Shown piece after piece: positions 129 to 32,326 of a stretch of 64,000 nucleotides of DNA (positions are counted from its first letter, which is position 1; every line of letters begins with the position of its first letter). Position numbers and translations under genes: made by a program. The stretch covers positions 17,059,045-17,123,044 of the forward strand of contig NC_092680.1 in assembly GCF_964355755.1 (NCBI RefSeq). The letters are read 5' to 3'. Source of the stretch: Antedon mediterranea. Taxonomy: Eukaryota > Animalia > Echinodermata. The notes below the pieces were generated by a model. It saw only the letters and a program-made list of their open reading frames with translations. It made no database searches and had not been told where the DNA came from.

Positions 129-171
129 TTTTCACCTGATGATGGGCTATGCCCGAAACATGTCGTTAAAA
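129..171 (+). ncRNA. Minimal type I hammerhead ribozyme (Penelope-like pLTR type)
   Basis: CTGATGA at 136-142, an extra T, stem II GGGC-TAT-GCCC at 144-154, GAAA at 155-158, palindromic mini stem III CATG, and a GTC cleavage triplet ending at 164. Stem I is TTTTCAC/GTTAAAA with one mismatch. AATAAA follows at 170-175. Confidence 0.8.
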
Positions 172-247: not shown

Positions 248-306
248 TATATATATATATATACATATATATATACATATATATACATATACATATATAT
301 ATACAT
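248..306. repeat. (TA)n/(TATACA)n microsatellite
   Basis: Directly visible simple repeat. Confidence 0.95.
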
Positions 307-380
307 CCACTGATTGTGAGGGCGTTTGTTGTATGAGAGAATGTATCTGGTGGGTGAAAATCTGTGATAATACCATACAT

Positions 381-452
381 GGCTCTGTGGTCTAGTGGTA
401 TGATACTCGCCCTGTAAGCGAGAGGTTGCAGGTTCGAATCCAGCCAGAGACA
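381..452 (+). pseudogene. tRNA-like element: tRNA-Pro-like body with TGT (Thr) anticodon
   Basis: Cloverleaf GGCTCTG/CAGAGAC, A box TGGTCTAGTGG, anticodon stem CTCGC/GCGAG with loop CCTGTAA, B box GGTTCGAATCC, then a T6 terminator at 453-458. There are mismatches in the acceptor and T stems, and C replaces the invariant U33. Confidence 0.75.
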
Positions 453-747
453 TTTTTTCATACAACTAAAAAATATGGAACTTTCGCCAATGAGCTATGC
501 TCGACGCGATTATGAGATCATGTTCCGAATATGAGCACTGTTTCTATAATTTACAGTATGATTTATATATAATTTACACAGTGCTACGCAACATCATTGA
601 TTTACATATACAAAATATTATTTAAAAAACCGTTGCGAATTAAAGTTGGAATTTATTCTGACTTGTTAAGCCTCCACTGATTGTGAGGGCGTTTGTTGTA
701 TGAGAGAATGTATCTGGTGGGTGAAAATCTGTGATAATACCATACAT

Positions 748-819
748 GGCTCTGTGGTCTAGTGGTATGATACTCGCCCTGTAAGCGAGAGGTTGCAGGT
801 TCGAATCCAGCCAGAGACA
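748..819 (+). pseudogene. Second identical copy of the tRNA-like (Pro body/TGT anticodon) element
   Basis: Identical to 381-452. Confidence 0.75.
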
Positions 820-930
820 TTTTTTCATACAACTAAAAAATATGGAACTTTCGCCAATGAGCTATGCTCGACGCGATTATGAGATCATGTTCCGAATATG
901 AGCACTGTTTCTATAATTTACAGTATGATT

Positions 931-973
931 TATATATATACATATATATATATATATATACATATATATATAC

Positions 974-1042
<69 letters not shown>

Positions 1043-1057
1043 TATATATATATACAC
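931..1057. repeat. (TA)n/(TATACA)n microsatellite
   Basis: Directly visible simple repeat. It explains the YIYI/CICI ORFs. Confidence 0.95.
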
Positions 1058-1162
1058 ATTAGGCAATGAACATTAAATCGAAACCGCCCGGTGATATACT
1101 GAAATTTTATTAATTAATTTGAAACGATAAAGATGAGGAAATCTGTGAGAATGAGAAAAAGT

Positions 1163-1234
1163 CGCCCAAACCGAGAATCGAACTCGGACCGCCTGCTTGA
1201 TATGCAGATGTCCTAACCATTAGACCACTGAGGC
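1163..1234 (-). pseudogene. tRNA-like element with ATC anticodon (Asp-type, non-canonical)
   Basis: The minus strand reads GCCTCAG TG GTCT AATGGTT AGGAC A TCTGC ATATCAA GCAGG CGGT CCGAG TTCGATT CTCGG TTTGGGC G, then TTTTT after 2 nt. The acceptor stem is imperfect. Confidence 0.7.
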
Positions 1235-1357
1235 TTTCATGGTATTGTTATATATAACAGGTTGAAATTATCAGACCGTTGGGATAGAGTGCTCAATACC
1301 AAGGTAGAGCATAAATAAATAAAATAACAGCAGAAAACTTGGTTACTTCATTGTTTT

Positions 1358-1630
1358 TGGAACGAAAAACTAAGAAATGCAACGGAACTCAGTAAATATA
1401 TATGGACACTTAAAGACTCTAAAACAAATTACTCAATTAAATGGAAAATTATAAAGAAATGCAAACCTTACTCAAATATTAACAAAAGATGTAATTTATG
1501 TATATATGAAAAGTATGTTATTATATGTCAACCAGAGCTATGCTCACTGAACCGTAAAAACAAGTTAGTCTCTACTTGTAGACATAGGAAAAAATTCTTA
1601 CTAAATTGCAGATCCAAACAGTTTATCTAA
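1358..1630 (+). pseudogene. C-terminal fragment of a Penelope-like GIY-YIG endonuclease (no start codon)
   Basis: Uninterrupted 90-codon frame WNEKLRNATELSKYIWTLKDSKTNYSIKWKIIKKCKPYSNINKRCNLCIYEKYVIICQPELCSLNRKNKLVSTCRHRKKFLLNCRSKQFI*. The TELSxxIW, CxLCxxEK, LN and CRH pattern is recalled from PLE-type GIY-YIG domains and was not database-checked. Confidence 0.7.
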
Positions 1631-1714
1631 AACAATAGGCTATTGTATACGACTTCCTGATGACTCACTTTTATTAAGCACTATGAGACAACTGTGTCAC
1701 TTATGTTTTATATT

Positions 1715-1770
1715 TCACCTGAAGAGTGCGGCCAGCTACATGCTGGTCGTACGAAACAAATTTGTAGTGA
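1715..1770 (+). ncRNA. Type I hammerhead ribozyme
   Basis: Stem I TCAC/GTGA, CTGAAGA at 1719-1725, an 11-bp stem II GTGCGGCCAGC/GCTGGTCGTAC, GAAA at 1753-1756, palindromic stem III CAAATTTG, and a GTA triplet ending at 1766. Confidence 0.88.
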
Positions 1771-1806
1771 TTAAAACAATGAAGTAACCAAGTTTTCTGC
1801 TGTTAT

Positions 1807-6825: not shown

Positions 6826-6907
6826 GTAGTCGTGGCCGAGTGGTTAAGGCGATAGACTAGAAATCTATTGGGGTCTCCCCGCGCAGGTTCGAATCCTGCC
6901 GACTACG
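6826..6907 (+). tRNA. tRNA-Ser(AGA)
   Basis: 82-nt canonical sequence GTAGTCGTGGCCGAGTGGTTAAGGCG...GACTACG, anticodon stem ATAGA/TCTAT with loop CTAGAAA, long variable arm, and a T7 terminator at 6911-6917. Confidence 0.97.
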
Positions 6908-8106: not shown

Positions 8107-8850
8107 ATTGAGTTCGTTGGACGTCTAACTATTGCGTTTGTTGTACACCTGACTATTGTGTTCGTCGTACTTCTGACTATTGCGTTCGTTGGACGTCTGG
8201 CTATTGCGTTCATTGTTCGTCTAACTATTACGTTCGTTGTTCGTCTTGACTATTGCGTTCGTTGTGTACGTCTGGCTAACTATATTGGGTTCGTTGACGA
8301 CGTCTGTCTGTTGCGATCGTTGTAGGCTTCGTCTGGCTATTGAGTTCGTTGTACGTCTGACTATTGCGTTCGATGTACGTCTGGCTATTGCGTTCGTTGT
8401 TCGTCTGACTAGTTCGTTCATTGTACGTCTGACTATTGCGTTCGTTGTTCGTCTGACTAGTTCGTTCATTGTACGTCTGACTAGTGCGTTCGTTGTACGT
8501 CTAAATATTGCGTTCATTGTACGACGTCTGACTATTGCGTTCGTTGTTTGTCTGGCTATTGCGGTCTTTGAACGTCCGACTATTGCGTTCGTTGTACGTC
8601 TGACTATTGCGTTCGTTGTACGTCTGGCTATTGCGTTCGTTAGACGTGTGACTATAATATTGCGTTCGTTGTACGTCTGACTATTGTGTTCGTTGTTCGT
8701 CTGGCTATTGAGTTCGTTGTAGGCCTACGTCTGGCTATTGCTTTCGTTGTACGTCTCACTATTTGCGTTCGTTGCTTGTTTGACTATTGCGTTCGTTGTA
8801 CGGCTGGCTATTGCCTTCGTTGTACGCCTGACTGTGACTATTCCATTCGT
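8107..8850. repeat. 24-bp minisatellite array 1 (CGTCTGACTATTGCGTTCGTTGTA)
   Basis: About 30 imperfect tandem units. It explains the repetitive ORFs on both strands. Confidence 0.95.
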
Positions 8851-9047
8851 ACTTTAAAAAGTCTCTGTTCTTTGCTCTTTCCTCTGATATTTGACAAACA
8901 ACAGAGGCACATTTGGCAAACATAATAGTTCAAATTGCTGGTCACTTAGCATTGAGTTTTAGCATTAAGTTATTATGATGCAATATAACTCAATTCATGT
9001 TTTTCAATCACTTTTAGAAAAGGTTACTCACTGTGTAGTTACACTGT

Positions 9048-10920
9048 CTATTCTAGCTCTTCAACCTCTATTATTGGTTCCATGATTCTTGCAACTCTAC
9101 TAACGTTTCGAAATTTATGTTTATTTCTAATTAAAAAGGTTTTTTGACCGCTTCCACTAGGTTTATTTTCTTTCACAACAGGAGCCCGTCTGTACTCGAC
9201 CGTCATACCACAAATTTTCTGTAGTCTTCGCATATAGCAATCCTGATCAAATCGAACGTCGTCAATTTGGTCTTGAACCGTGTTAATTTTCTGCAGGTTG
9301 TACGAAACCATTTCCATCCGTCGACTGGATTCACGCCTAAGCTTTGAGGCGATTAAATCAAGAACTTCGCCTCGATGCAAGCCATGGCAATCAGGAACCG
9401 GATTCTGACAAATTCTAGCCCAGTCTGATCTTGCTCGCTCAACCTGTTGGATCAAACATTTGCTGAGAGTGACGATGGAATTAAGTTGTTGATCGACGTG
9501 GGTTAGAGGACTTGCATCTACATCATACTCTTCACTTGGATCCTCTTGATCTTCCAGAAAGTGTACTACAGCGTCTTTATCCTTCTCGGTGACGTCATCA
9601 CAATACATTCTTACATTGTCCCAATATGTGGAATACTCCAGCTCCTCCATGTCTTTCTTTATTTCGAAAGAGTCAAACGATTCCTCTTTTTCGTCATCAT
9701 TGAAATCCAGTGTGTTGGTGTGCACTGTCAACTGTTCGTTGTCTTCCGTTTTCTCTGTCTTAACTGTCAATTTTGCTGATACGTGGTCAATGCTGTTGGA
9801 GGCTCGTACGTCGCGTTCTGCCTGTACGCATTTGCTCAACATTTTCACTTCCTTGGTGTTTACTGATTTGTCTGCCATTTCAAATGAACGTGTCATTGTG
9901 CCACTCTCTGTCAACTCTTTTTTGAGTGTCTGTGTCTCGTCATCAACCATTTTTGGTTTGACCTTTTTACTTCTGCCTTTTTTGGTGAGACGTGCCAATC
10001 TAAAGGCTTCACTAAGCTTTCCTCTCTTTTTCTTCGTTGGCTTCTCTTCTTCATTGGAAGTTTCTGCATCAGGTCCTGTTGATGTCTGTGAAACTGTGCT
10101 GTCCATCTTCTCCTCCAAAGAAGTCTCCGAAGCAGTAGATAGTTCAGGGCTTTTGGTAGCACCAACTGATGCAGCTTTGGCGGATGGTGGGCGTTTAGAT
10201 GACGCAATACCAATTGAGAAATCATCATCTTCTCCCATTACGTTTCTAATTTCTACTTGAAGGGCATCCCATTTTCTGACTTCTCTTTCTCGTTTCAGTT
10301 CTTCCCTTCGACGGCGTCGAGCAGCGGGGTTCTCAGAGCCAGGAATATTTTCTTCCACTCTACTGAATGATTTAACACCAGACTTAGTAATTCTACCAAC
10401 TGTTGTATATCTAGCTGCTGACGATGTACTTGCAACAGCTTGACCAGTAGTAGGCCCACTGGTTGTAGCGGCATTTGAATCTTCATTGGAAACAACCTGG
10501 ATAACAAACAAATATATATAATATAAACAAAATTATGTATTAGTATGGTTAAATTACAATGTGATCGGGAATAAACGGTTTGCTTACCTGCTGTTGTCGA
10601 CGGTTAAAGAATCTACGAAACCGTGCAAAGCGACGCCACCATGGAGAGGATGGACGTGCCTATCAATAAATAAGATAAAAATCGTAAAAAACAACTTCTT
10701 AATAAACCATTAAATGCCTATGACCCCGACTAGGCTACACCTCGTTTGCACAACAAGACTATCGAACACCACTTCTGCGCACTCTTGTCTTCTATAAAAT
10801 TTCACGCAGTACCTTCTTAAAAGTATCGCTTAAAATCAAGCATTCTTTACTCACGTTTTCTTTCCGATATTCTTCATTTTGTTTTTGTCGTTTATCAACT
10901 GATTGTTTACTTTCAGCCAT
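9048..10920 (-). CDS. Orphan gene, copy 1 (possibly pseudogenised)
   Basis: Predicted exons 10855-10920, 10741-10791, 10588-10659 and 9048-10496, all phase 0 and GT-AG. There is an in-frame TAG at 10759-10761 in the 51-nt exon, where copy 2 has TCG. The 483-codon last exon is open. Confidence 0.6.
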
Positions 10921-10981
10921 CGTAATGAAATAAAATCTCTTTTCGAGTATAATTATCGAATATTTAACTAAGAAATCACTA

Positions 10982-11925
10982 CGTCTGGATTGAGTTCGTT
11001 GTACGTTTGACTATTGCGTTTGTTGTGCACGTCTGGCTATTGCTTTCGTTGTACGTCTGACTATTGCGTTCGTTGTACGTCTGACTATTGCGTTCGTTGG
11101 ACGTCTGATTATTGCGTTCGTTATACATCTAACTATTTCGTTCGTTGTACGTCTGGCTATTGCGTTCGTTATTCGTCTGGCTATTGCGGTCTTTGGACGT
11201 CTGACTATTGCGTTCGTTGTACGTCTGACTATTGCGTTCGTTGTACGTCTGGCTATTGCGTTCGTTAGATGTGTGACTATAATATTGCGTTCGTTGCACG
11301 TCTGACTATTGCGTTCGTTGTACGTCTGGCCATTACGTTCGTTGTGTACGTCTGACTATTGCGTTCGTTGTACGTCTGACTATTGCGTTCGTTGTACGTC
11401 TGGCTATTGCGTTCGTTAGATGTGTGAATATAATATTGCGTTCGTTGCACGTCTGACTATTGCGTTCGTTGTACGTCTGGCCATTACGTTCGTTGTGTAC
11501 GTCTGGCTATTGCGTTCGTTGTTCGTCTGGCTATTGAGTTCGTTGTAGGCCTACGTCTGGCTATTGCTTTCGTTGTACGTCTCACTATTTGCGTTCGTTG
11601 TTTGTTTGACTATTGCGTTCGTTGTACGTCTGACTATTGCGTTCGTTGTACGTCTGGCTATTTCGTTCGTTAGACGTGTGACTATAATATTGCGTTCGTT
11701 GTACGTCTGACTATTGTGTTCCTTGTACGTCTGGCTACTACGTTCGTTGTGTACGTCTGGCTATTGCGTTTGTTGTTCGTCAAGCTATTGAGTTCGTTGT
11801 AGGCCTACGTCTGGCTATTGCTTTCGTTGTACGTCTCACTATTTGCGTTCGCTGTTTGTTTGACTATTGCGTTCGTTGTTTGTCTGGCTATTACGTTCGT
11901 TGTACGCCTGACTGACTATTCCATT
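10982..11925. repeat. 24-bp minisatellite array 2
   Basis: Same unit as 8107-8850 but longer, with internal higher-order blocks. Confidence 0.95.
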
Positions 11926-12129
11926 CGTACTTTAAAAAGTCTCGGTTCTTTGCTCTTCCCTCTGATCTTTGACAAACAACAGAGGCACGGGACATTTGGC
12001 AAACATCATAGTTCAAACTGCTGGTCACTTAGCATTGAGTTTAGCATTAAGTTATTATGATGCAATATCACTCAATTCATGTTTTTCAATCACTTTTAGA
12101 AAAGGTTACTCACTGCGTAGTTACACTGT

Positions 12130-14002
12130 CTATTCTAGCTCTTCAACCTCCATTATTGGTTCCATGATTCTTGCAACTCTACTAACGTTTCGAAATTTAT
12201 GTTTATTTCTAATTACAAAGGTTTTTTGACCGCTTCCACTAGGTTTATTTTTTTTCACAACAGGAGCTCGTCTGTACTCGATCGTCATACCACAAATATT
12301 CTGTAGTCTTCGCATATAGCACTCCTGATCAAATCGAACGTCGTCAATTTGGTCTTGAACCGTGTTAATTTTCTGCAGGTTGTACGAAACCATTTCCATC
12401 CGTCGACTGGATTCACGCCTAAGCTTTGAGGCGATTAAATCAAGAACTTCGCCTCGATGCAAGCCATGGCAATCAGGAACCGGATTCTGACAAATTCTAG
12501 CCCAGTCTGATCTTGCTCGCTCAACCTGTTGGATCAAACATTTGCTGAGAGTGACGATGGAATTAAGTTGTTGATCGACGTGGGTTAGAGGACTTGCATC
12601 TACATCATACTCTTCACTTGGATCCTCTTGATCTTCCAGAAAGTGTACTACAGCGTCTTTATCCTTCTTGGTGACGTCATCACAATACATTCTTACATTG
12701 TCCCAATATGTGGAATACTCCAGCTCCTCCATGTCTTTCTTTATTTCGAAAGAGTCAAACGATTCCTCTTTTTCGTCATCATTGAAATCCAGTGTGTTGG
12801 TGTGCACTGTCAACTGTTCGTTGTCTTCCGTTTTCTCTGTCTTAACTGTCAATTTTGCTGATACGTGGTCAATGCTGTTGGAGGCTCGTACGTCGCGTTC
12901 TGCCTGTACGCATTTGCTCAACATTTTCACTTCCTTGGTGTTTACTGATTTGTCTGCCATTTCAAATGAACGTGTCATTGTGCCACTCTCTGTCAACTCT
13001 TTTTTGAGTGTCTGTGTCTCGTCATCAACCATTTTTGGTTTGACCTTTTTACTTCTGCCTTTTTTGGTGAGACGTGCCAATCTAAAGGCTTCACTAAGCT
13101 TTCCTCTCTTTTTCTTCGTTGGCTTCTCTTCTTCATTGGAAGTTTCTGCATCAGGTCTTGTTGATGTCTGTGAAACTGTGCTGTCCATCTTCTCCTCCAA
13201 AGAAGTCTCCGAAGCAGTAGATAGTTCAGGGCTTTTGGTAGCACCAACTGATGCAGCTTTGGCGGATGGTGGGCGTTTAGATGACGCAATACCAATTGAG
13301 AAATCATCATCTTCTCCCATTACGTTTCTAATTTCTACTTGAAGGGCATCCCATTTTCTGACTTCTCTTTCTCGTTTCAGTTCTTCCCTTCGACGGTGTC
13401 GAGCAGCGGGGCTCTCAGAGCCAGGAATATTTTCTTCCACTCTACTGAATGATTTAACACCAGACTTAGTAATTCTACCAACTGTGGTATATCTAGCTGC
13501 TGACGATGTACTTGCAACAGCTTGACCAGTAGTAGGCCCACTGGTTGTAGCGGCATTTGAATCTTCATTGGAAACAACCTGGATAACAAACAAATATATA
13601 TAATATAAACAAAATTATGTATTAGTATGGTTAAATTACAATGTGATCGGGAATAAACGATTAGCTTACCTGCTGTTGTCGTCTATTTCGACGGTTAAAG
13701 AATCTACGGAACCGTGCAAAGCGACGCCACCATGGAGAGGATGGACGTGCCTATCAATAAATAAGATAAAAATCGTAAAAAACTTCTTAATAAACCATTA
13801 AATGCCTATGACCCCGACTATAGGTTACACCTCGTTCGCACAATAAGACGATCGAACACCACTTCTGCACACTCTTGTCTCCTATCAAATTTCACGCAGT
13901 AGCCTACCTTCTTAAAATCAAGCATTCTTTACTCACGTTTTCTTTGCGATATTCTTCATTTTGTTTTTGTAGTTTATCAACTGATTGTTTATTTTCAGCC
14001 AT
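12130..14002 (-). CDS. Orphan gene, copy 2, ~548 aa, low-complexity/acidic with helical C-terminus
   Basis: Predicted exons 13937-14002 (acgATGG; MAENKQSVDKLQKQNEEYRKEN), 13831-13881, 13670-13750 (ARPSSPWWRRFARFRRFFNRRNRRQQQ) and 12130-13578 total 1647 nt and are open. A 9-nt in-frame indel versus copy 1 supports coding. The exon 2 donor (GTGTAA) is weak. Confidence 0.7.
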
Positions 14003-14366
14003 CGTAATAAAATAAAATCTCTTTTCGAGTATAATTATCGAATATTTAACTAAGAAATCACTAAGATAAGTTACTTTCCAGCGTGCTTAGAAAGAATGAT
14101 AAGGTTTGTTGACACCGTACCTCCTTGGTAACTTTGTGTACGATCCTCCCTATGGTAACGTTACGCGCGCGTAGTTTAGGCATGGAAACTGTGACGCGTT
14201 GTAAAAGTAAGTCCACACCACGAGAGACAGCGCCGCACCAAGTGTTTCATTATAAATACCGTAATAATAATTGCCATTATTCTTTAAAAAAAAATTATAT
14301 AAAGCGATGCTGTATAAAATAATTATATATTGCATAGGCCTACACAATCCTTTTAATAATCCCTAA

Positions 14367-18890: not shown

Positions 18891-21800
18891 CTACCGTTTT
18901 GTTGAAAATGTGAAAAGAAGCGAAACTAGTAGCGTCACAAATGTCCATGCTTGCGAGGCTTGTAACACATTAGTCCTATTGGGTTCATTATCGCCCCGCA
19001 CTATTGGTGGGGGATCTTGTTCAAATATACTAGTTCTATTTGCAAGTACACGTTTGGGATTGGGATGCAGTCTTTTTACATCCATGAAGGCATGTTGTGC
19101 AGCAAGCGAAAAGTTTGCATTGCCAGTTGTCATGAGGTCAAACACACATGAATCAAAATAGTCATTTGTAACTTCTGCCTTTTTACATTTGGCAACTGCT
19201 TCTACGCGAGAAGTTAATTTTCGAGATGGATCAAGGTTATCGAGCTGTTTATATCGGAGATTTAAAAAGTCTTTGAAATAAATTCTTTCCCGAGCTGGGC
19301 ATCCTTTGACGCACAATTGCAACGCGTCATCTTCCTTATCCTGGATTAAATCCCTTGGCATACTGAGGGCAAAGGTCAGAAATCGTCCGACCTGACGAAG
19401 CACGATGGTTGTTGCCACGTATTGAAGGTGTATTTCTACGTGTTTTCTCGGTACAACATCTAGAATGACCACACTCTGGCTAGGCCCACTTGTGTTTGTG
19501 CCATCCAGGAACGCAGCTGGTAGTCTCCCACTCTCGGCGAAATAGATCTTCTGCTCGGCACATTTAGCATTGGATTTGATCACAACAGAAATCTAGAACA
19601 AAAAAAAAGGATATCATAAATACCAATATCATTTAATTGATTATTTAGAGAACAATACATTTTAACTTAAAAGTTAAATGCATCGATTGTGTGGTTAAAG
19701 AAACGGATTGAAATTATGCATATACAAATTACTTTATTAGAGAGGCAGTATTTTGATGGTCAGAGAATCAGATTAGGACCAGGATGTTATACACGTCGTG
19801 TTTCCCTCTTGTTTTGACCATCTAGAATGGTTTACGGAACAATATTTTGATCCATGTGCAAGATTTATCAGAAACTCGAATGTGACGTTTTCGATATGTT
19901 CGAGATTCCATTACAGTCATTTCCGTATCATGAGTGAGTAATTATAAACGGCAAAAAGGCTAAACCAATACACAAGTATTGGTTAGCATGTATTTTGATG
20001 TACTTTAAATGTAGAGTAATATAATATATAGTATCAATTAGACTTGCCCCAAGTCTGTAGTTATTGTCTTTTTTATCCACCAGTCGGTGTTTTGATTTGT
20101 GTCTGAATAATACGTGCTCGTGTATGAAACGCCATATGTGCCAAAATATTCATCTTTTTACTAATTTCGGTATAGATACTAGACTAAGCACTAATGTTTA
20201 GTAATACGAATATATTAACGAAAATGGTACGCGTTTGTAAATGTTATCCTTGTAAAAATAAAAATGATGATGTAGTGATTTAATTTAGAGGTATAGACCT
20301 ATATCTCTATTTCTATACCTCCATGATAGATCCATGATAGATGTAATTTCGTTAACGATATTCTATAATAAATACGTACTGGTTACAAGAAATCAGTAGG
20401 CCTACGGTAATAGTTTCCAAACACGCCAACAGATAACAATAATATTTATAATCATTCAATAATTCATATTAGATAAGAAAATCATAAATCAGAGTTCAGA
20501 GGCAAAAGTAACAATATTCTTGTATAGTAACTGAATCTTTGAATTTGCACTTTGCATACTATTCTTCGCGATCTGGGCAGTCTAATTTAACAGAATGTTA
20601 CGAAATTGAAAACCGATTATTTAATGAGCATAATTAATTCTCTTATCAAGCGGGAACGTCGTTTGTTAATGAACAGATTAGTCGACAAATCTCAGCTTTT
20701 ATCTCTGCAATTACTCATCGAGTTATACAAATATGGCCTCTATCGAAACATAAACAAAACATTACTTATAAACAATGTACTTGTAAGGAGGCAGTAATAA
20801 GTATACAATACAACCATATCATTAAAACAAAGTTGTATTGAACACAATACCATACTAATTAATTCAGTGGGAAAGCCAATAGAATTAAAAAAAACCTACT
20901 GTTTTCATTTATAAGTTTATACACTATTATTGCTGACCTATTTCTCTACAGTGCATCAATTACAGAAACCCATTAAACTGTCAATGTTATGTCCAGAAGG
21001 AATGTCCAGAAGGGATGTCCAGAAGGAATATCCAGAAGGAATGTCCAAAAGGAATGTCCAGAAGGGATATCCAGAAGGGATATCCAGAAGGGATATCCAG
21101 AAGGGATGTCCAGAAGGAATGTCCAGAAGGGATGTCCAGAAGGAATGTCTAGAAGGGATGTCCAGAAGGAATGTCTAGAAGGGATGTCCAGAAGGAATGT
21201 CCAGAAGGAATGTCCAGAAGGGATGTCCAGAAGCGATGTCCAGAAGGAGTGTCCAGAAGGGATATCCAGAAGGGATATCCAGAAGGAATGTCCAGAAGGG
21301 ATGTCCAGAAGGAATGTCCAGAAGGGATGTCCAGAAGGGATGTCCAGAAGGAATGTCCAGAAGGGATGTCCAGAAGAAATGTCCAGAAGGGATGTCCAGA
21401 AGCGATGTCCAGAAGGAATGTCCAGAAGGGATGTAAGACTAGAGGTCCAACCCATCCTGGTACCTCAATGTAGTGTATAGCCCAACATACATATCCACTG
21501 ATAAAAATGATCAGATATTGTTAAGAAATGTTAGACCAGACAAAATCGCTTTCTAAACGCTATCGCTAATAATGCACAACGGCATTCTTGTTCTGTTTCC
21601 GTTGGTTATTTAAGCGAGTTAATCTGCATACAGGTAACAAATTGGCGTGTTCAATAACTTAAGTCTGTTGTCTCAGGTACAGCTGAACAAGCTGCTTTCA
21701 CTTCCTTCACCAATATTCAACATTAAAAGTCACAATCCGTTGGTATCCCTGTTATAGTATTATTGCCTTGATTTAATATTAGTGCATGCTATGGAGTTCA

Positions 21801-30800: not shown

Positions 30801-32326
30801 TAACAGTAGACTTGAGCTCTGAAAGCCGTAGTATAAATTATCCATTTATTCATAAATTAATTGGTACTGTAGGCCTATGCAGAAGTTCATATTCGATCAT
30901 TAAAATGTAATCAGTACCTTGAATAGTAAACGTATCTCGGTGGAATGTAACCCAGAGATATGACCAGTGATTGACCTAGTGGACAATACAATCAATCTAT
31001 TCTTTGAAGGGCTCGAGTCAAGTTAATCGCCTTGAGTTAAATCTATTGTTCATGCAAGGATCAAATCGATTCAATCGAAGATGGAAGTGACCATTGTAAG
31101 TCCGAAAAGCACACTTGAATAAGAAGGGGGTAGATTAAGGGAACTTAATTAACTCAGTAGACAATACGTTAACCTTTAATCTCGGGGCCAATCTGTGCTC
31201 ATCTAAGAACTGTCTAAAAAAGAAACAATAATGATTACTGCAGGACATAAATTTCTGCAGATATTTTTTGCATAACTTACCTTACTCGTAGCCGTTGCTC
31301 CAGACGATCCATTCACTGGTATATTTGTAACACTCACGGCTACATAGTCATTATAAACCAGTGGCCATGCACCAGACACTTTACACGTTTGAAATTCATC
31401 ATAAAACGTTCTTAAATGCGGGTCTCCAAAAATGCCACAATGTGCTAAATCCTCCGTCTTACGAGAACCACGATAGTCACATGTATTGTCTCGTTGTGGT
31501 GGCGTAGGACGGGGTCTCCGCGCAGTGACCGTTAACTCCCGCGTCCCCTTTGGACGACGGGTAGTTGTCGGGACGTTTGCTAAAACATTTTCACAGTCGT
31601 ATAGCTGCATATAATCAGGAATGTATGTTGTGATTGTGTGGTAGTTAAGGTTTCCACGACATGAACTAGCCGTCCTCTGGGTACAAGTTCGATATCTTTC
31701 CAGAGCTTGACAACGTAATAGAACGTCAGATTCAGCGAGAGAGTCTGTAGCTGAAGAGTACTGCTTTGTACAACGAACTACTTTACAATCAGACGACGAA
31801 AATTGAGTACAAGCTACAAAGGAAGATATTTAAAGTGTTATATATTTTGTTCTTTTGTTGAAGAATGCCTTGGTTAGAATATGAACGTTTATTTACGTGT
31901 ACGATATCAACATTGGTATAAATATTGGTCTTAACGCCTAGGACTCAACGCGAGGACGTAAGCGCAACGCAAGTAGTAATATATATAAGTTGATCCATCA
32001 AAAAAGGTGACAGTTCGGATGATCCATTGCGTCGTGATTGTTTAGATTACGTGCGTTGAGCTTAAATTACGTACTTGAGTTGCGTCCTATAGCGGAAACC
32101 ATGATTTAAGTAGGCGCGCGTAACACAATTAATTGCGTACATTTAAAAAAACGGCCACAGTGCATAGTATTTTTTTTTTCATATTCTTAACGGAGTCTTT
32201 AAAATACCTTACAAAAATAACGCCAACTGACTTACCTGTTTGGAATAAACTACACAAAATAACAAGTTTGACGAAAAGAACCGCTATCGGGCGAAAAGCC
32301 GCGCTTGTGAAGCGCCTTTGCCCCAT
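18891..32326 (-). CDS. RGM: Repulsive guidance molecule (RGM family; RGMa/RGMb/hemojuvelin homolog), 441 aa from the in-exon ATG
   Basis: Exon 32236-32326 encodes a signal peptide. Exon 31281-31813 encodes CQALERYRTCTQRTASSCRGNLNYH, HCGIFGDPHLRTF and CKVSGAWPL. Exon 18891-19592 encodes [51 protein letters not shown] and a hydrophobic GPI-type tail. Introns are GT-AG with phases 1 and 0. Confidence 0.95.
20040..20190. repeat. Dispersed ~150-bp repeat family (unclassified)
   Basis: AGACTTGCCCCAAGT...CCACCAGTCGGTGTTT...GCCATATGTGCCAAAATATT. Diverged reverse-orientation copies at about 24835-24998, 37700-37868 and 52820-52940. Confidence 0.7.
20989..21434. repeat. 13-bp minisatellite (CCAGAAGG(G/A)ATGT) in RGM intron
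   Basis: About 34 tandem units. It explains the CPEGMSRR ORFs. Confidence 0.95.
25313..25491. mobile_element. MITE family B full copy with TTA target-site duplication
   Basis: TTA-AGCGTGGTTCCCAC...GTGGGAACCAAGCT-TTA, 179 bp. Confidence 0.88.
25549..25584. mobile_element. P-element-type footprint (CATAGAGA family)
   Basis: GTTGGAC-CATAGAGATATTATAGT...TCTCTATG-GTTGGAC. Confidence 0.72.
26909..26995 (+). mobile_element. Probable 3' end of a LINE/SINE with (TAAA)n tail
   Basis: GACAGGACCACAATGCAAAACAGG...AAAGATGTTGTTAAATAAATAAATAAA. An inverted copy lies at about 48105-48192. Confidence 0.55.

What the first reader, a model, noticed from the sequence alone, without database searches (positions are those of the whole stretch)
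473..564. Structured module 3' of a tRNA-like gene occupies the 'ribozyme slot': candidate unrecognised or remodelled self-cleaving RNA
Seen: about 20 nt after the Pol III terminator there is a compact fold with GGAAC(477-481)/GTTCC(522-526), TCGC/GCGA and GAGC-TAT-GCTC. The unit then ends in TGATTT+(AT)n, as does the hammerhead-bearing unit upstream. Plus-strand reading: TTTCGCC..ATGAGCTATGCTCGA..CATGT aligns with the hammerhead at 129-171 (TTTCACC..ATGGGCTATGCCCGA..CATGT). Stem II shows a compensatory G-C to A-T swap, but the CUGANGA and GAAA core is absent. Minus-strand reading (538 to 477): an HDV-like nested pseudoknot can be drawn. It has P1 GUGCUC/GAGCAU with a first G-U pair, P2 GGAAC/GUUCC, P3 AUG/CGU with an oversized 12-nt L3, P1.1 CU/AG, a tiny P4 and GGCGAA at J4/2. 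Inference: this is a decayed hammerhead, an HDV-like variant, or a new processing motif. The second copy is at 840-931.
Basis: partly seen in the sequence, partly recalled or inferred. Interest (0 to 1): 0.78.

Follow-up and report, generated by a model that had tools for sequence, protein, structure and literature searches.

The report
Retrozyme-like repeat lacking its hammerhead core
The folded stretch is part of an abundant 367-base non-coding tandem repeat of an animal that carries a tRNA-like head and ends at AT microsatellites; it is likely the leftover frame of a hammerhead self-cutting RNA that lost its catalytic letters, so it probably no longer cuts, and the proposed reverse-strand HDV-type ribozyme is unlikely.

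Summary
The drawn helices and the identical second copy are real, but the module alone folds no better than shuffles (z -0.3 to -2.0). It lies in a 367-bp monomer (306-672) plus a partial copy (to 938) between two (TA)n tracts. Public contigs show the monomer is tandem, very deep, 5'-truncated, sometimes inverted, and ends at a repeated TGATTT-ATATA motif (571, 610): Penelope-type (PLE) hallmarks. A long leader/tRNA rod (z -6.6; 7 of 8 wobbles G-U on +) marks + as the structured strand, against the minus-strand HDV drawing, which also has a 12-nt L3 without U20/G25 and fails a strict descriptor. Stems I and II resemble the window's two PLE hammerheads (weak support), but no variant at 1-2% or more restores GAAA: the whole family lacks the core. 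Best reading: a non-autonomous PLE/retrozyme-like repeat with a collapsed, likely non-cleaving hammerhead. No covariation could be obtained; a new + strand cleaver is not excluded (about 12%). The scan had no look-alike of this DNA, but noted tRNA-headed retrozymes with intact hammerheads in other genomes.

The parts
306..672 (+). 367-bp monomer of a high-depth non-coding tandem repeat (retrozyme-like, likely non-autonomous PLE)
   Evidence: joint 672->306 in 4 of 4 runs laid, one 397-nt (367+30) cyclic contig; circular fold -102.6 kcal/mol on +, z -5.0, 0 of 60 shuffles
673..938 (+). second, partial copy (266 of 266 identical to 306-571) ending at (TA)n; together a PLE-type partial tandem
   Evidence: layout as in PMC8557442 section 6
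325..376 (+). leader: inverted copy of the tRNA-like 3' half and terminator; forms a long rod with 424-469
   Evidence: arms 325-350/444-469, 85% complementary; 321-470 folds at z -6.64 on +, -4.29 on - (0 of 200 each); 7 of 8 wobble-type differences are G-U on +
381..452 (+). tRNA-like head (anticodon UGU, but C33 and unpaired 382/450, 430/442, 393/401): likely tRNA-derived, not a working tRNA-Thr
   Evidence: ARAGORN, Rfam RF00005 52.3 bits, non-pairs
453..458 (+). T6 run, Pol III terminator-like; no variant listed at 2% or more
   Evidence: sequence; table 3
476..527 (+). the module: outer helix 476-481/522-527 (6 bp with the family-majority C476), inner arm, weak 3-bp hairpin 512-521
   Evidence: pair probabilities on +: outer 0.9 with C476, 0.15 with the window's T476; inner 0.7-1.0; hairpin 0.15-0.36; C476 is 80% of depth in X1, 95% in X2
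482..512 (+). likely collapsed type-I hammerhead: stem-I-like TCGC/GCGA, residual C-(A/G)-A-T, stem-II-like GAGC-TAT-GCTC, residual G-A-C; no GAAA, no helix III
   Evidence: inference
477..538 (-).
559..571 (+). terminal motif TGATTT-ATATA, first 3' end used by copies (likely priming site on (TA)n)
   Evidence: window copy ends here (938 = 571); loose ends at 552/571/574 running into TA; D2 repeat
598..610 (+). second copy of the terminal motif, 39 nt further; second 3' end
   Evidence: D2, 12 of 13 identical; loose ends at 610 followed by (TA)n in X1 (9 contigs) and X2 (4)
843..894 (+). second copy of the module
248..305 (.). left (TA/CA)n tract, tail of the hammerhead-bearing neighbour and likely the insertion target
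931..1056 (.). right (TA/CA)n tract
130..171 (+). neighbouring PLE-type minimal hammerhead (CUGAUGA, extra U, 4-bp stem II with TAT loop, GAAA, palindromic helix III); its element ends in the same TGATT+(TA)n at 243-255
   Evidence: features as in PMC4209133 parts 1-2
1713..1773 (+). second PLE-type hammerhead of the window (stem I TTTCAC/GTGATTA), used as comparison

Best explanation
The module is part of a 367-base tRNA-headed tandem repeat that ends at (TA)n microsatellites, and it is likely a hammerhead ribozyme relic that kept stems I and II but lost its catalytic core, so it probably does not cut RNA. Shown: the repeat, its tandem joint, its two fixed 3' ends at one motif, truncated and inverted copies, the + strand rod, and the absence of GAAA and of an intact CUGANGA from the family at the 1-2% level. 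Inferred: a + strand multimeric or circular RNA (it must pass two T6 runs, so not a single Pol III transcript) would be copied by the reverse transcriptase/GIY-YIG endonuclease of an autonomous PLE that nicks (TA)n (Naiad or Hydra type), priming at the TGATTT-ATATA motif and going round about 1.7 units here; the retained fold would serve as part of the pLTR signal rather than as a catalyst.
For: Tandem joint 672->306 in 4 of 4 runs laid (3 of 3 without X1, which may be the source sample); summed contig depth 4e5-9.8e5 in X1 and 1e5-6e5 in X2 over 339-600. 3' ends at 571 and 610, 39 nt apart, at one repeated motif that also ends the hammerhead-bearing neighbour; opposite-strand joints 310/367, 334/482, 417/508 and an inverted piece before 461; depth rising towards the 3' end. 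PMC8557442 section 6 lists 5' truncation, partial tandems, inverted copies, a 30-40 bp tail and (TA)n targets for Naiads, which multiply without canonical hammerheads; its supplement lists (TA)n-targeting Hydra PLEs in an echinoderm. Hammerhead ancestry: a profile built only from the two window hammerheads ranks the two module copies first among non-training hits in 64 kb (3.2 bits; 16 of 1000 shuffled monomers as good, 4 of 1000 for the 489G variant); stem I reads TTTCGC..GCGATTA against TTTCAC..GTGATTA in the 1713 hammerhead with the pair kept (pattern found at 482, 849, 1713 only; 29 of 20000 shuffles); stem II swaps G-C for A-U against the 130 hammerhead; 489G (4-6% in X1/X2, 15% in X6, the only form in X20) gives C-G-A-U-G-A; the second-run table also lists 486A, 488T, 507T at 13-19% in X6. 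No insertion near 503-505 at 1-2% (table 4); no hammerhead in any of six block orders with an exact core on either strand of the circular monomer (controls found). Module not more conserved than the rest: 4 variant places in 68 nt against 11 (10 substitutions and indel places counted tables 3-4) in the other 299 nt.
Against: Ancestry support is weak and partly post hoc: plain alignment 938 of 2000; the profile hit vanishes with another column setting; with one mismatch allowed per anchor the pattern occurs in 1589 of 3000 shuffles. 486A, 488T, 502T, 507T are CpG-type transitions, so the apparent CUGAUGA and the A-U swap may be plain decay, and the tables do not show that they lie on one molecule. 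No autonomous partner was found (no genome held). Tandem arrays can also grow at DNA level. Non-cleavage is inferred from missing residues, not assayed. A 367-nt structured tandem unit is just what cleaving retrozymes look like (PMC7229834 passages), which argues for some processing step.
Confidence: 0.47

Rival explanations
1. Same PLE-type or satellite repeat, but the module is an ordinary non-catalytic stretch whose likeness to hammerhead stems is chance; its fold is part of the general compaction of the monomer.
For: Module z-scores not significant; alignment not significant; relaxed anchors common; no excess conservation; a related tRNA-like element at 1163-1234 reaches the same (TA)n with a tail that has no such module (568 of 1000).
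Against: Exact anchor pattern rare (29 of 20000) and profile rank first; position matches the hammerhead slot of the neighbour; pair-keeping swaps in both stems.
Confidence: 0.31
2. The + strand module is a functional, unrecognised self-cleaving or processing RNA (a remodelled hammerhead scaffold or a new class, perhaps acting as a dimer through its short palindromes) that cuts multimers into 367-nt units.
For: Retrozyme-sized, highly structured monomer on + with no known ribozyme; the family amplified in this form; majority C476 stabilises the three-way fold; 6 of 9 variants at paired positions keep a pair on + (476, 480, 485, 502, 507, 512 against 486, 514, 522; not significant); one X6 contig starts at 506, the position equivalent to a hammerhead cut (1 of the 11 pieces shown).
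Against: No covariation, no excess conservation, no clustering of copy ends (table 6 empty, contigs only); every known-class test failed; Naiad PLEs multiply without canonical hammerheads.
Confidence: 0.12
3. The minus strand carries an HDV-like ribozyme with an enlarged L3 that cuts 5' of 538.
For: All five helices can be drawn, with G1-U and a C at the start of J4/2; the relaxed descriptor fires on only 4 of 300 shuffles.
Against: Descriptor loosened post hoc; strict one fails; L3 12 nt against 7-8 nt and no U20/G25 (bioRxiv 2022.09.22.508989 passages); competing nested fold holds P1' and J4/2 with probability 0.8-1.0 (pseudoknots not modelled); opposite to the structured strand; the would-be catalytic C (486) is changed to U in 18% of X6 depth; depth is flat across 538 (974k then 883k in X1); Rfam HDV-type families give no hit to E 10.
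Confidence: 0.05
4. The array is a tRNA-pseudogene satellite spread at DNA level with no RNA step.
For: Tandem units, intact T6 right behind the tRNA-like head.
Against: Fixed 3' ends at a motif shared with a hammerhead element, (TA)n flanks, truncations and inversions; strand-biased G-U pattern.
Confidence: 0.05

Closest known systems
Animal non-LTR retrozymes (Cervera and de la Pena 2020, PMC7229834, passages; Li et al. bioRxiv 10.64898/2026.07.22.740005, parts 1-3 of 5)
   Same: Protein-free tandem units of 170-400 nt, low GC, strongly folded, dimers to multimers plus dispersed pieces, linked to PLE pLTRs.
   Different: No type-I hammerhead in the unit, which defines retrozymes; has a tRNA-like head with terminator and an antisense leader.
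Schistosome Sm-alpha / Sj-alpha tRNA-derived hammerhead SINE-like repeats (PMC6765202 and PMC2770079 passages)
   Same: tRNA-derived Pol III head inside a tandem repeat next to a hammerhead slot.
   Different: There the hammerhead is active and Pol III transcribes the multimer; here the core is absent and T6 follows the head directly.
[quoted passage not shown]
   Same: Short stem I, G-C closed stem II, position near the 3' end; two such motifs lie in this window.
   Different: U4, A14, A15.1, U16.1 and helix III have no counterpart in the module.
Naiad and Hydra PLEs (Craig et al. 2021, PMC8557442; passages, section 6, supplement)
   Same: (TA)n targets, partial tandems, inverted truncated copies, 30-40 bp tail; Naiads lack canonical hammerheads.
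   Different: They are autonomous (RT and GIY-YIG); short module motifs gave only chance hits in their consensus file.
HDV-like ribozymes, including tRNA-linked theta ribozymes (PMC10879173 passages)
   Same: A five-helix drawing near a tRNA 3' end.
   Different: Theta ribozymes cut within 5 nt of the tRNA 3' end in cis; here the drawing is on the other strand, 86 nt from the tRNA-like end, with a non-standard L3.

Membership tests
Hammerhead ribozyme | CUGANGA (or U3-A8 variant) next to stems I and II | tested here: not met
   No exact core on either strand of the circular monomer; 487-493 has 2 mismatches, 1 with 489G; exact only if X6 variants 488T and 489G lie together (linkage not shown).
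Hammerhead ribozyme | GAAA next to stems II and III | tested here: not met
   G-A-C at 503-505; no insertion variant at 1-2%.
Hammerhead ribozyme | Helix III / NUH site (monomer or palindromic dimer), any block order | tested here: not met
   0 hits with exact core in six orders; descriptor recovers the 1719 and, with a 2-bp stem I, the 136 hammerhead.
Hammerhead ribozyme | Stems I and II | tested here: inconclusive
   Helices present; homology to the window's hammerheads weak.
Hammerhead ribozyme | Self-cleavage | not testable with these tools
   Needs an assay.
HDV-like ribozyme | Nested P1/P2/P3/P1.1 topology with G1 and J4/2 C | tested here: met
   Drawable on the minus strand under a relaxed descriptor; 4 of 300 shuffles too.
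HDV-like ribozyme | L3 of 7-8 nt with U20-G25 and C22 pairing G38 | tested here: not met
   12-nt L3, J1/4 starts with A; strict descriptor 0 (consensus recalled, loop sizes and U20-G25).
HDV-like ribozyme | On the transcribed strand, marking a copy boundary at the cut | tested here: not met
   + is the structured strand; no depth step at 538; one X6 contig ends at 539.
Twister / twister-sister(-like) / hairpin ribozyme | Class core motifs with flanking helices | tested here: not met
   Descriptors from recalled motifs: 0 on +, one all-A/U twister match on - outside the module, 0 for the others (no positive control in the window); TS-like needs 5+6-nt loops (PMC11620745 passages), module has 4+3; Rfam no hit.
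Non-LTR retrozyme | Tandem non-coding 170-400-nt unit | tested here: met
   367 bp, tandem joint in 4 of 4 runs.
Non-LTR retrozyme | Type-I hammerhead in each unit | tested here: not met
Non-LTR retrozyme | Unit-length linear and circular RNAs | not testable with these tools
   Only contigs were served.
Non-autonomous PLE | Partial tandem, 5' truncation, inversions, 30-40 bp tail, microsatellite target | tested here: met
Non-autonomous PLE | 3' end shared with an autonomous PLE | not testable with these tools
   No genome held; only a 5-nt TGATT plus (TA)n end shared with the hammerhead neighbour.

The most novel reading that the evidence does not exclude
A retrozyme-type repeat has replaced its hammerhead with a new self-cleaving fold built on the old stems I and II: a natural record of one ribozyme class turning into another, active on the + strand, perhaps as a dimer.
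Probability: 0.12. Interest if true: 0.85.

Novelty: new variant of a known kind. Interest (0 to 1): 0.36.

Why it matters
Whether PLEs and retrozymes need their hammerheads is open (PMC8557442 raises that hammerheads may simply parasitise PLEs). A successful retrozyme-like family whose master copy lacks the core would be a natural test: if it does not cut, cleavage is dispensable for PLE-driven spread of small tandem RNAs and hammerhead-based surveys miss such families; if it does cut, it is a new small ribozyme. The assay is cheap. As it stands the finding is a repeat variant, not a demonstrated ribozyme. Two literature searches found no description of a hammerhead-less tRNA-headed retrozyme; the library lacks most subscription papers.

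Tried and rejected
No whole genome held, so copies could not be collected or a covariance model built; build_rna_model and the count of structure pairs were not used because only two identical copies were in hand. Pattern scans: viral contigs 0 and 1 GC-rich chance hit; metagenome contigs 0 and 33 hits, 33 of 33 without similarity beyond the pattern (7-20 of 60 letters downstream). Rfam: only tRNA; the control hammerhead at 130-171 was also missed, so Rfam's blank says nothing on minimal hammerheads. Sequencing runs: no RNA holder listed; X6 is only guessed to be RNA, and its 27-fold depth drop beyond 608 is not used, since X1 and X2 drop 4- to 14-fold too. Low-depth holders X3, X4, X12, X16, X20 (depth 2-350) are not taken as other host species. 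I laid 8 of 24 listed runs. Apparent 5' ends of pieces (461-506) are spread, not clustered. Variant letters gave no usable covariation (one possible 486/507 swap, both CpG-type). MAFFT could not align the hammerheads by structure; I aligned them by blocks in a script. Non-circular hammerhead permutations (PMC10085705 parts 2-4 of 8): none. K-turn, SECIS and box C/D readings were checked by eye against recalled motifs and do not fit. The likeness of the tRNA-like 3' half to a Naiad 3' motif gave no twister match. RNase P/Z punctuation in place of a ribozyme: possible but disfavoured, since the leader rod (-60.4 kcal/mol) outweighs the cloverleaf (-13.7) in any transcript that includes the leader. 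The bacterial promoter scan is irrelevant here. Lunse et al. on dimeric PLE hammerhead variants is not held; its variant cores could bear on the 487-493 reading and I did not see them. The bioRxiv preprints' supplements were not seen. Earlier-finding look-ups by sequence and relatives found no look-alike (one unrelated tRNA; nothing).

Full report
Setting. The window is animal DNA: two exons hit the RGM domains, GC is 35%. Earlier notes of this scan call the genome a feather star; I did not test that. No whole genome is held.

Observation. The duplicated block is larger: 306-571 = 673-938. The module by itself is not an unusually stable fold: z -0.27 (+) and -1.29 (-) for 473-564; -1.4 to -2.0 for 473-530 with or without the majority letter C476. 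Rfam finds only the tRNA-like head, but it also misses the neighbouring minimal hammerhead.

The element. Twenty of 24 listed runs, in 9 studies, hold the stretch or part of it; I laid 8. All 4 runs show the joint 672->306, and one holds a 397-nt cyclic contig: the unit is a 367-bp tandem monomer. Summed contig depth reaches 9.8e5 (X1, perhaps the source sample) and 6.0e5 (X2, another study and label); this is not a copy number but shows a major repeat. Depth rises from the leader to 495-560 and falls beyond 570-610. Contigs leave the unit for (TA)n after about 571 and after 610, where one 13-nt motif is repeated 39 nt apart; the hammerhead-bearing neighbour ends in the same TGATT+(TA)n. Opposite-strand joints and an inverted piece occur. 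The window copy is a truncated unit followed by a full unit between two (TA)n tracts. These are the features that Craig et al. list for PLEs, in particular Naiads (PMC8557442 section 6; passages); (TA)n-targeting Hydra PLEs occur in an echinoderm (supplement). Size, tandem layout and lack of an ORF match animal retrozymes.

Strand. The strongest structure is not the module but a rod between the leader (325-376) and the tRNA-like 3' half plus T6 (424-469): z -6.64 on +, -4.29 on -; of 8 wobble-type differences 7 are G-U on + (one-sided binomial 9/256); the circular monomer folds at -102.6 (+) against -80.7 (-) kcal/mol. The tRNA-like head, the terminal motif and the neighbour's hammerhead have the same polarity. 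I infer that + is the RNA strand. Because the window copy spans two T6 runs and starts 75 nt before the first head, its template cannot have been one terminated Pol III transcript: a read-through multimer, a circle, or later DNA-level duplication is needed (inference).

HDV reading. The drawing exists and only 4 of 300 shuffles pass the same relaxed descriptor, but that descriptor was loosened to fit. L3 has 12 nt, against 7-8 in HDV and CPEB3, with no U20-G25 pair; J1/4 starts with A; the strict descriptor finds nothing. The nested three-way fold occupies P1' and J4/2 with probabilities 0.8-1.0 (pseudoknots are not modelled). It is on the wrong strand, depth is flat across 538, and the would-be catalytic C is U in 18% of X6 depth (CpG-type). 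It differs from theta ribozymes, which cut at the tRNA 3' end in cis. About 5%.

Hammerhead reading. By plain alignment the likeness to 130-171 is chance-level (938 of 2000; 239 of 2000 with 489G). By structure it is better: the window's second hammerhead (1713-1773) has stem I TTTCAC/GTGATTA and the module TTTCGC/GCGATTA, one pair swapped; stem II differs from the first hammerhead by one swapped pair. A profile of the two hammerheads ranks the module copies first among other hits in 64 kb (16 of 1000 shuffles; 4 of 1000 with 489G) under one setting and not at all under another; the exact anchor pattern occurs in 29 of 20000 shuffles, a relaxed one in 1589 of 3000. In this reading both halves of the core have shrunk, leaving a 4+3 internal loop; U4, A14, A15.1, U16.1 and helix III are gone. 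No variant at 1-2% or more restores GAAA, and no exact core exists in any block order on either strand (controls; permutations after PMC10085705). So the core-less form is the family's master form. X6 lists 486A, 488T, 489G, 502T, 503T, 507T at similar depth (770-930); together they would spell CUGAUGA and an A-U pair in stem I, but four are CpG-type transitions and linkage is not shown.

Function. There is no covariation evidence: variants are single changes; 6 of 9 at paired positions keep a pair on + (not significant); the module is not more conserved than the rest. No relatives were found in viral or metagenome contigs or in the PLE consensus file. Twister, twister-sister-like and hairpin descriptors fail. 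By established hammerhead chemistry the module should not cut. Since Naiads spread without canonical hammerheads, cleavage need not be required. I therefore favour a likely non-cleaving hammerhead relic in a PLE-mobilised repeat (0.47), then an ordinary stretch with chance likeness (0.31), a new + strand cleaver (0.12), HDV-like (0.05) and a DNA-only satellite (0.05).

Novelty. tRNA-headed hammerhead repeats are known (Sm-alpha) and this scan noted others in other genomes. A version whose family lacks the core was not found in two searches. It is a new variant of a known kind; interest 0.36, or 0.85 if it cuts.

What I saw of each paper: PMC8557442 passages, section 6, supplement part 2 of 59 and searches; bioRxiv 2026.07.22.740005 parts 1-3 of 5; PMC10085705 parts 2-4 of 8; PMC4209133 parts 1-2 of 4; passages only of PMC6765202, PMC7229834, PMC11620745, PMC10879173, PMC2770079 and bioRxiv 2022.09.22.508989; Lunse et al. 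nothing. HDV, twister, twister-sister and hairpin core motifs in my descriptors, and hammerhead numbering, are recalled.

Noticed in passing
window 325-469 (+), repeated at 692-836: The leader is an antisense copy of the tRNA-like 3' half and its T6 terminator and forms a rod (z -6.6) that would hide the cloverleaf in multimer or circular RNA but not in a Pol III transcript; this is the statistically strongest RNA structure of the unit.
   Followed up: partly
window 1057-1246 (-): A second, related tRNA-like gene (1163-1234, called Asp-ATC) with its own T5 run and the same 8-letter motif at -12 to -5 reaches the same (TA)n from the other side; its tail has no module. The tract looks like a landing pad for three elements.
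   Followed up: partly
window 1713-1773 (+): A second PLE-type hammerhead with an 11-bp stem II and a loopless palindromic helix III (dimer type), missed by Rfam.
   Followed up: partly
not in the window: PMC8557442 supplement, 3' ends of four bivalve Naiad consensus sequences: By eye these 'hammerhead-less' Naiads carry a twister-like motif with covarying 2-bp helices and a palindrome that could pair only in a dimer; oyster and acorn-worm Naiads carry a different conserved pseudoknot-like motif. Not run through any model. A search for twister + Penelope + Naiad + ribozyme found 0 papers. If real, PLE pLTRs host other ribozyme classes.
   Followed up: no
window 1535-1545 (+): A third copy of the 11-letter stem-II hairpin of the module outside any copy of the repeat; unexplained.
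   Followed up: no
window 1323-1357 and 1773-1807: A perfect 35-bp inverted repeat brackets the stretch that holds the second hammerhead, as in inverted PLE insertions.
   Followed up: no
window 8107-14063: A 3-kb tandem duplication (93% identical), each unit with a 494-codon open frame without Pfam hit and a short-period repeat.
   Followed up: no
window 18891-19592 and 31203-31829 (-): Exons of a repulsive guidance molecule (RGM) gene.
   Followed up: yes
window 6826-6907 (+): A normal-looking tRNA-Ser(AGA), 64.2 bits, with terminator.
   Followed up: no
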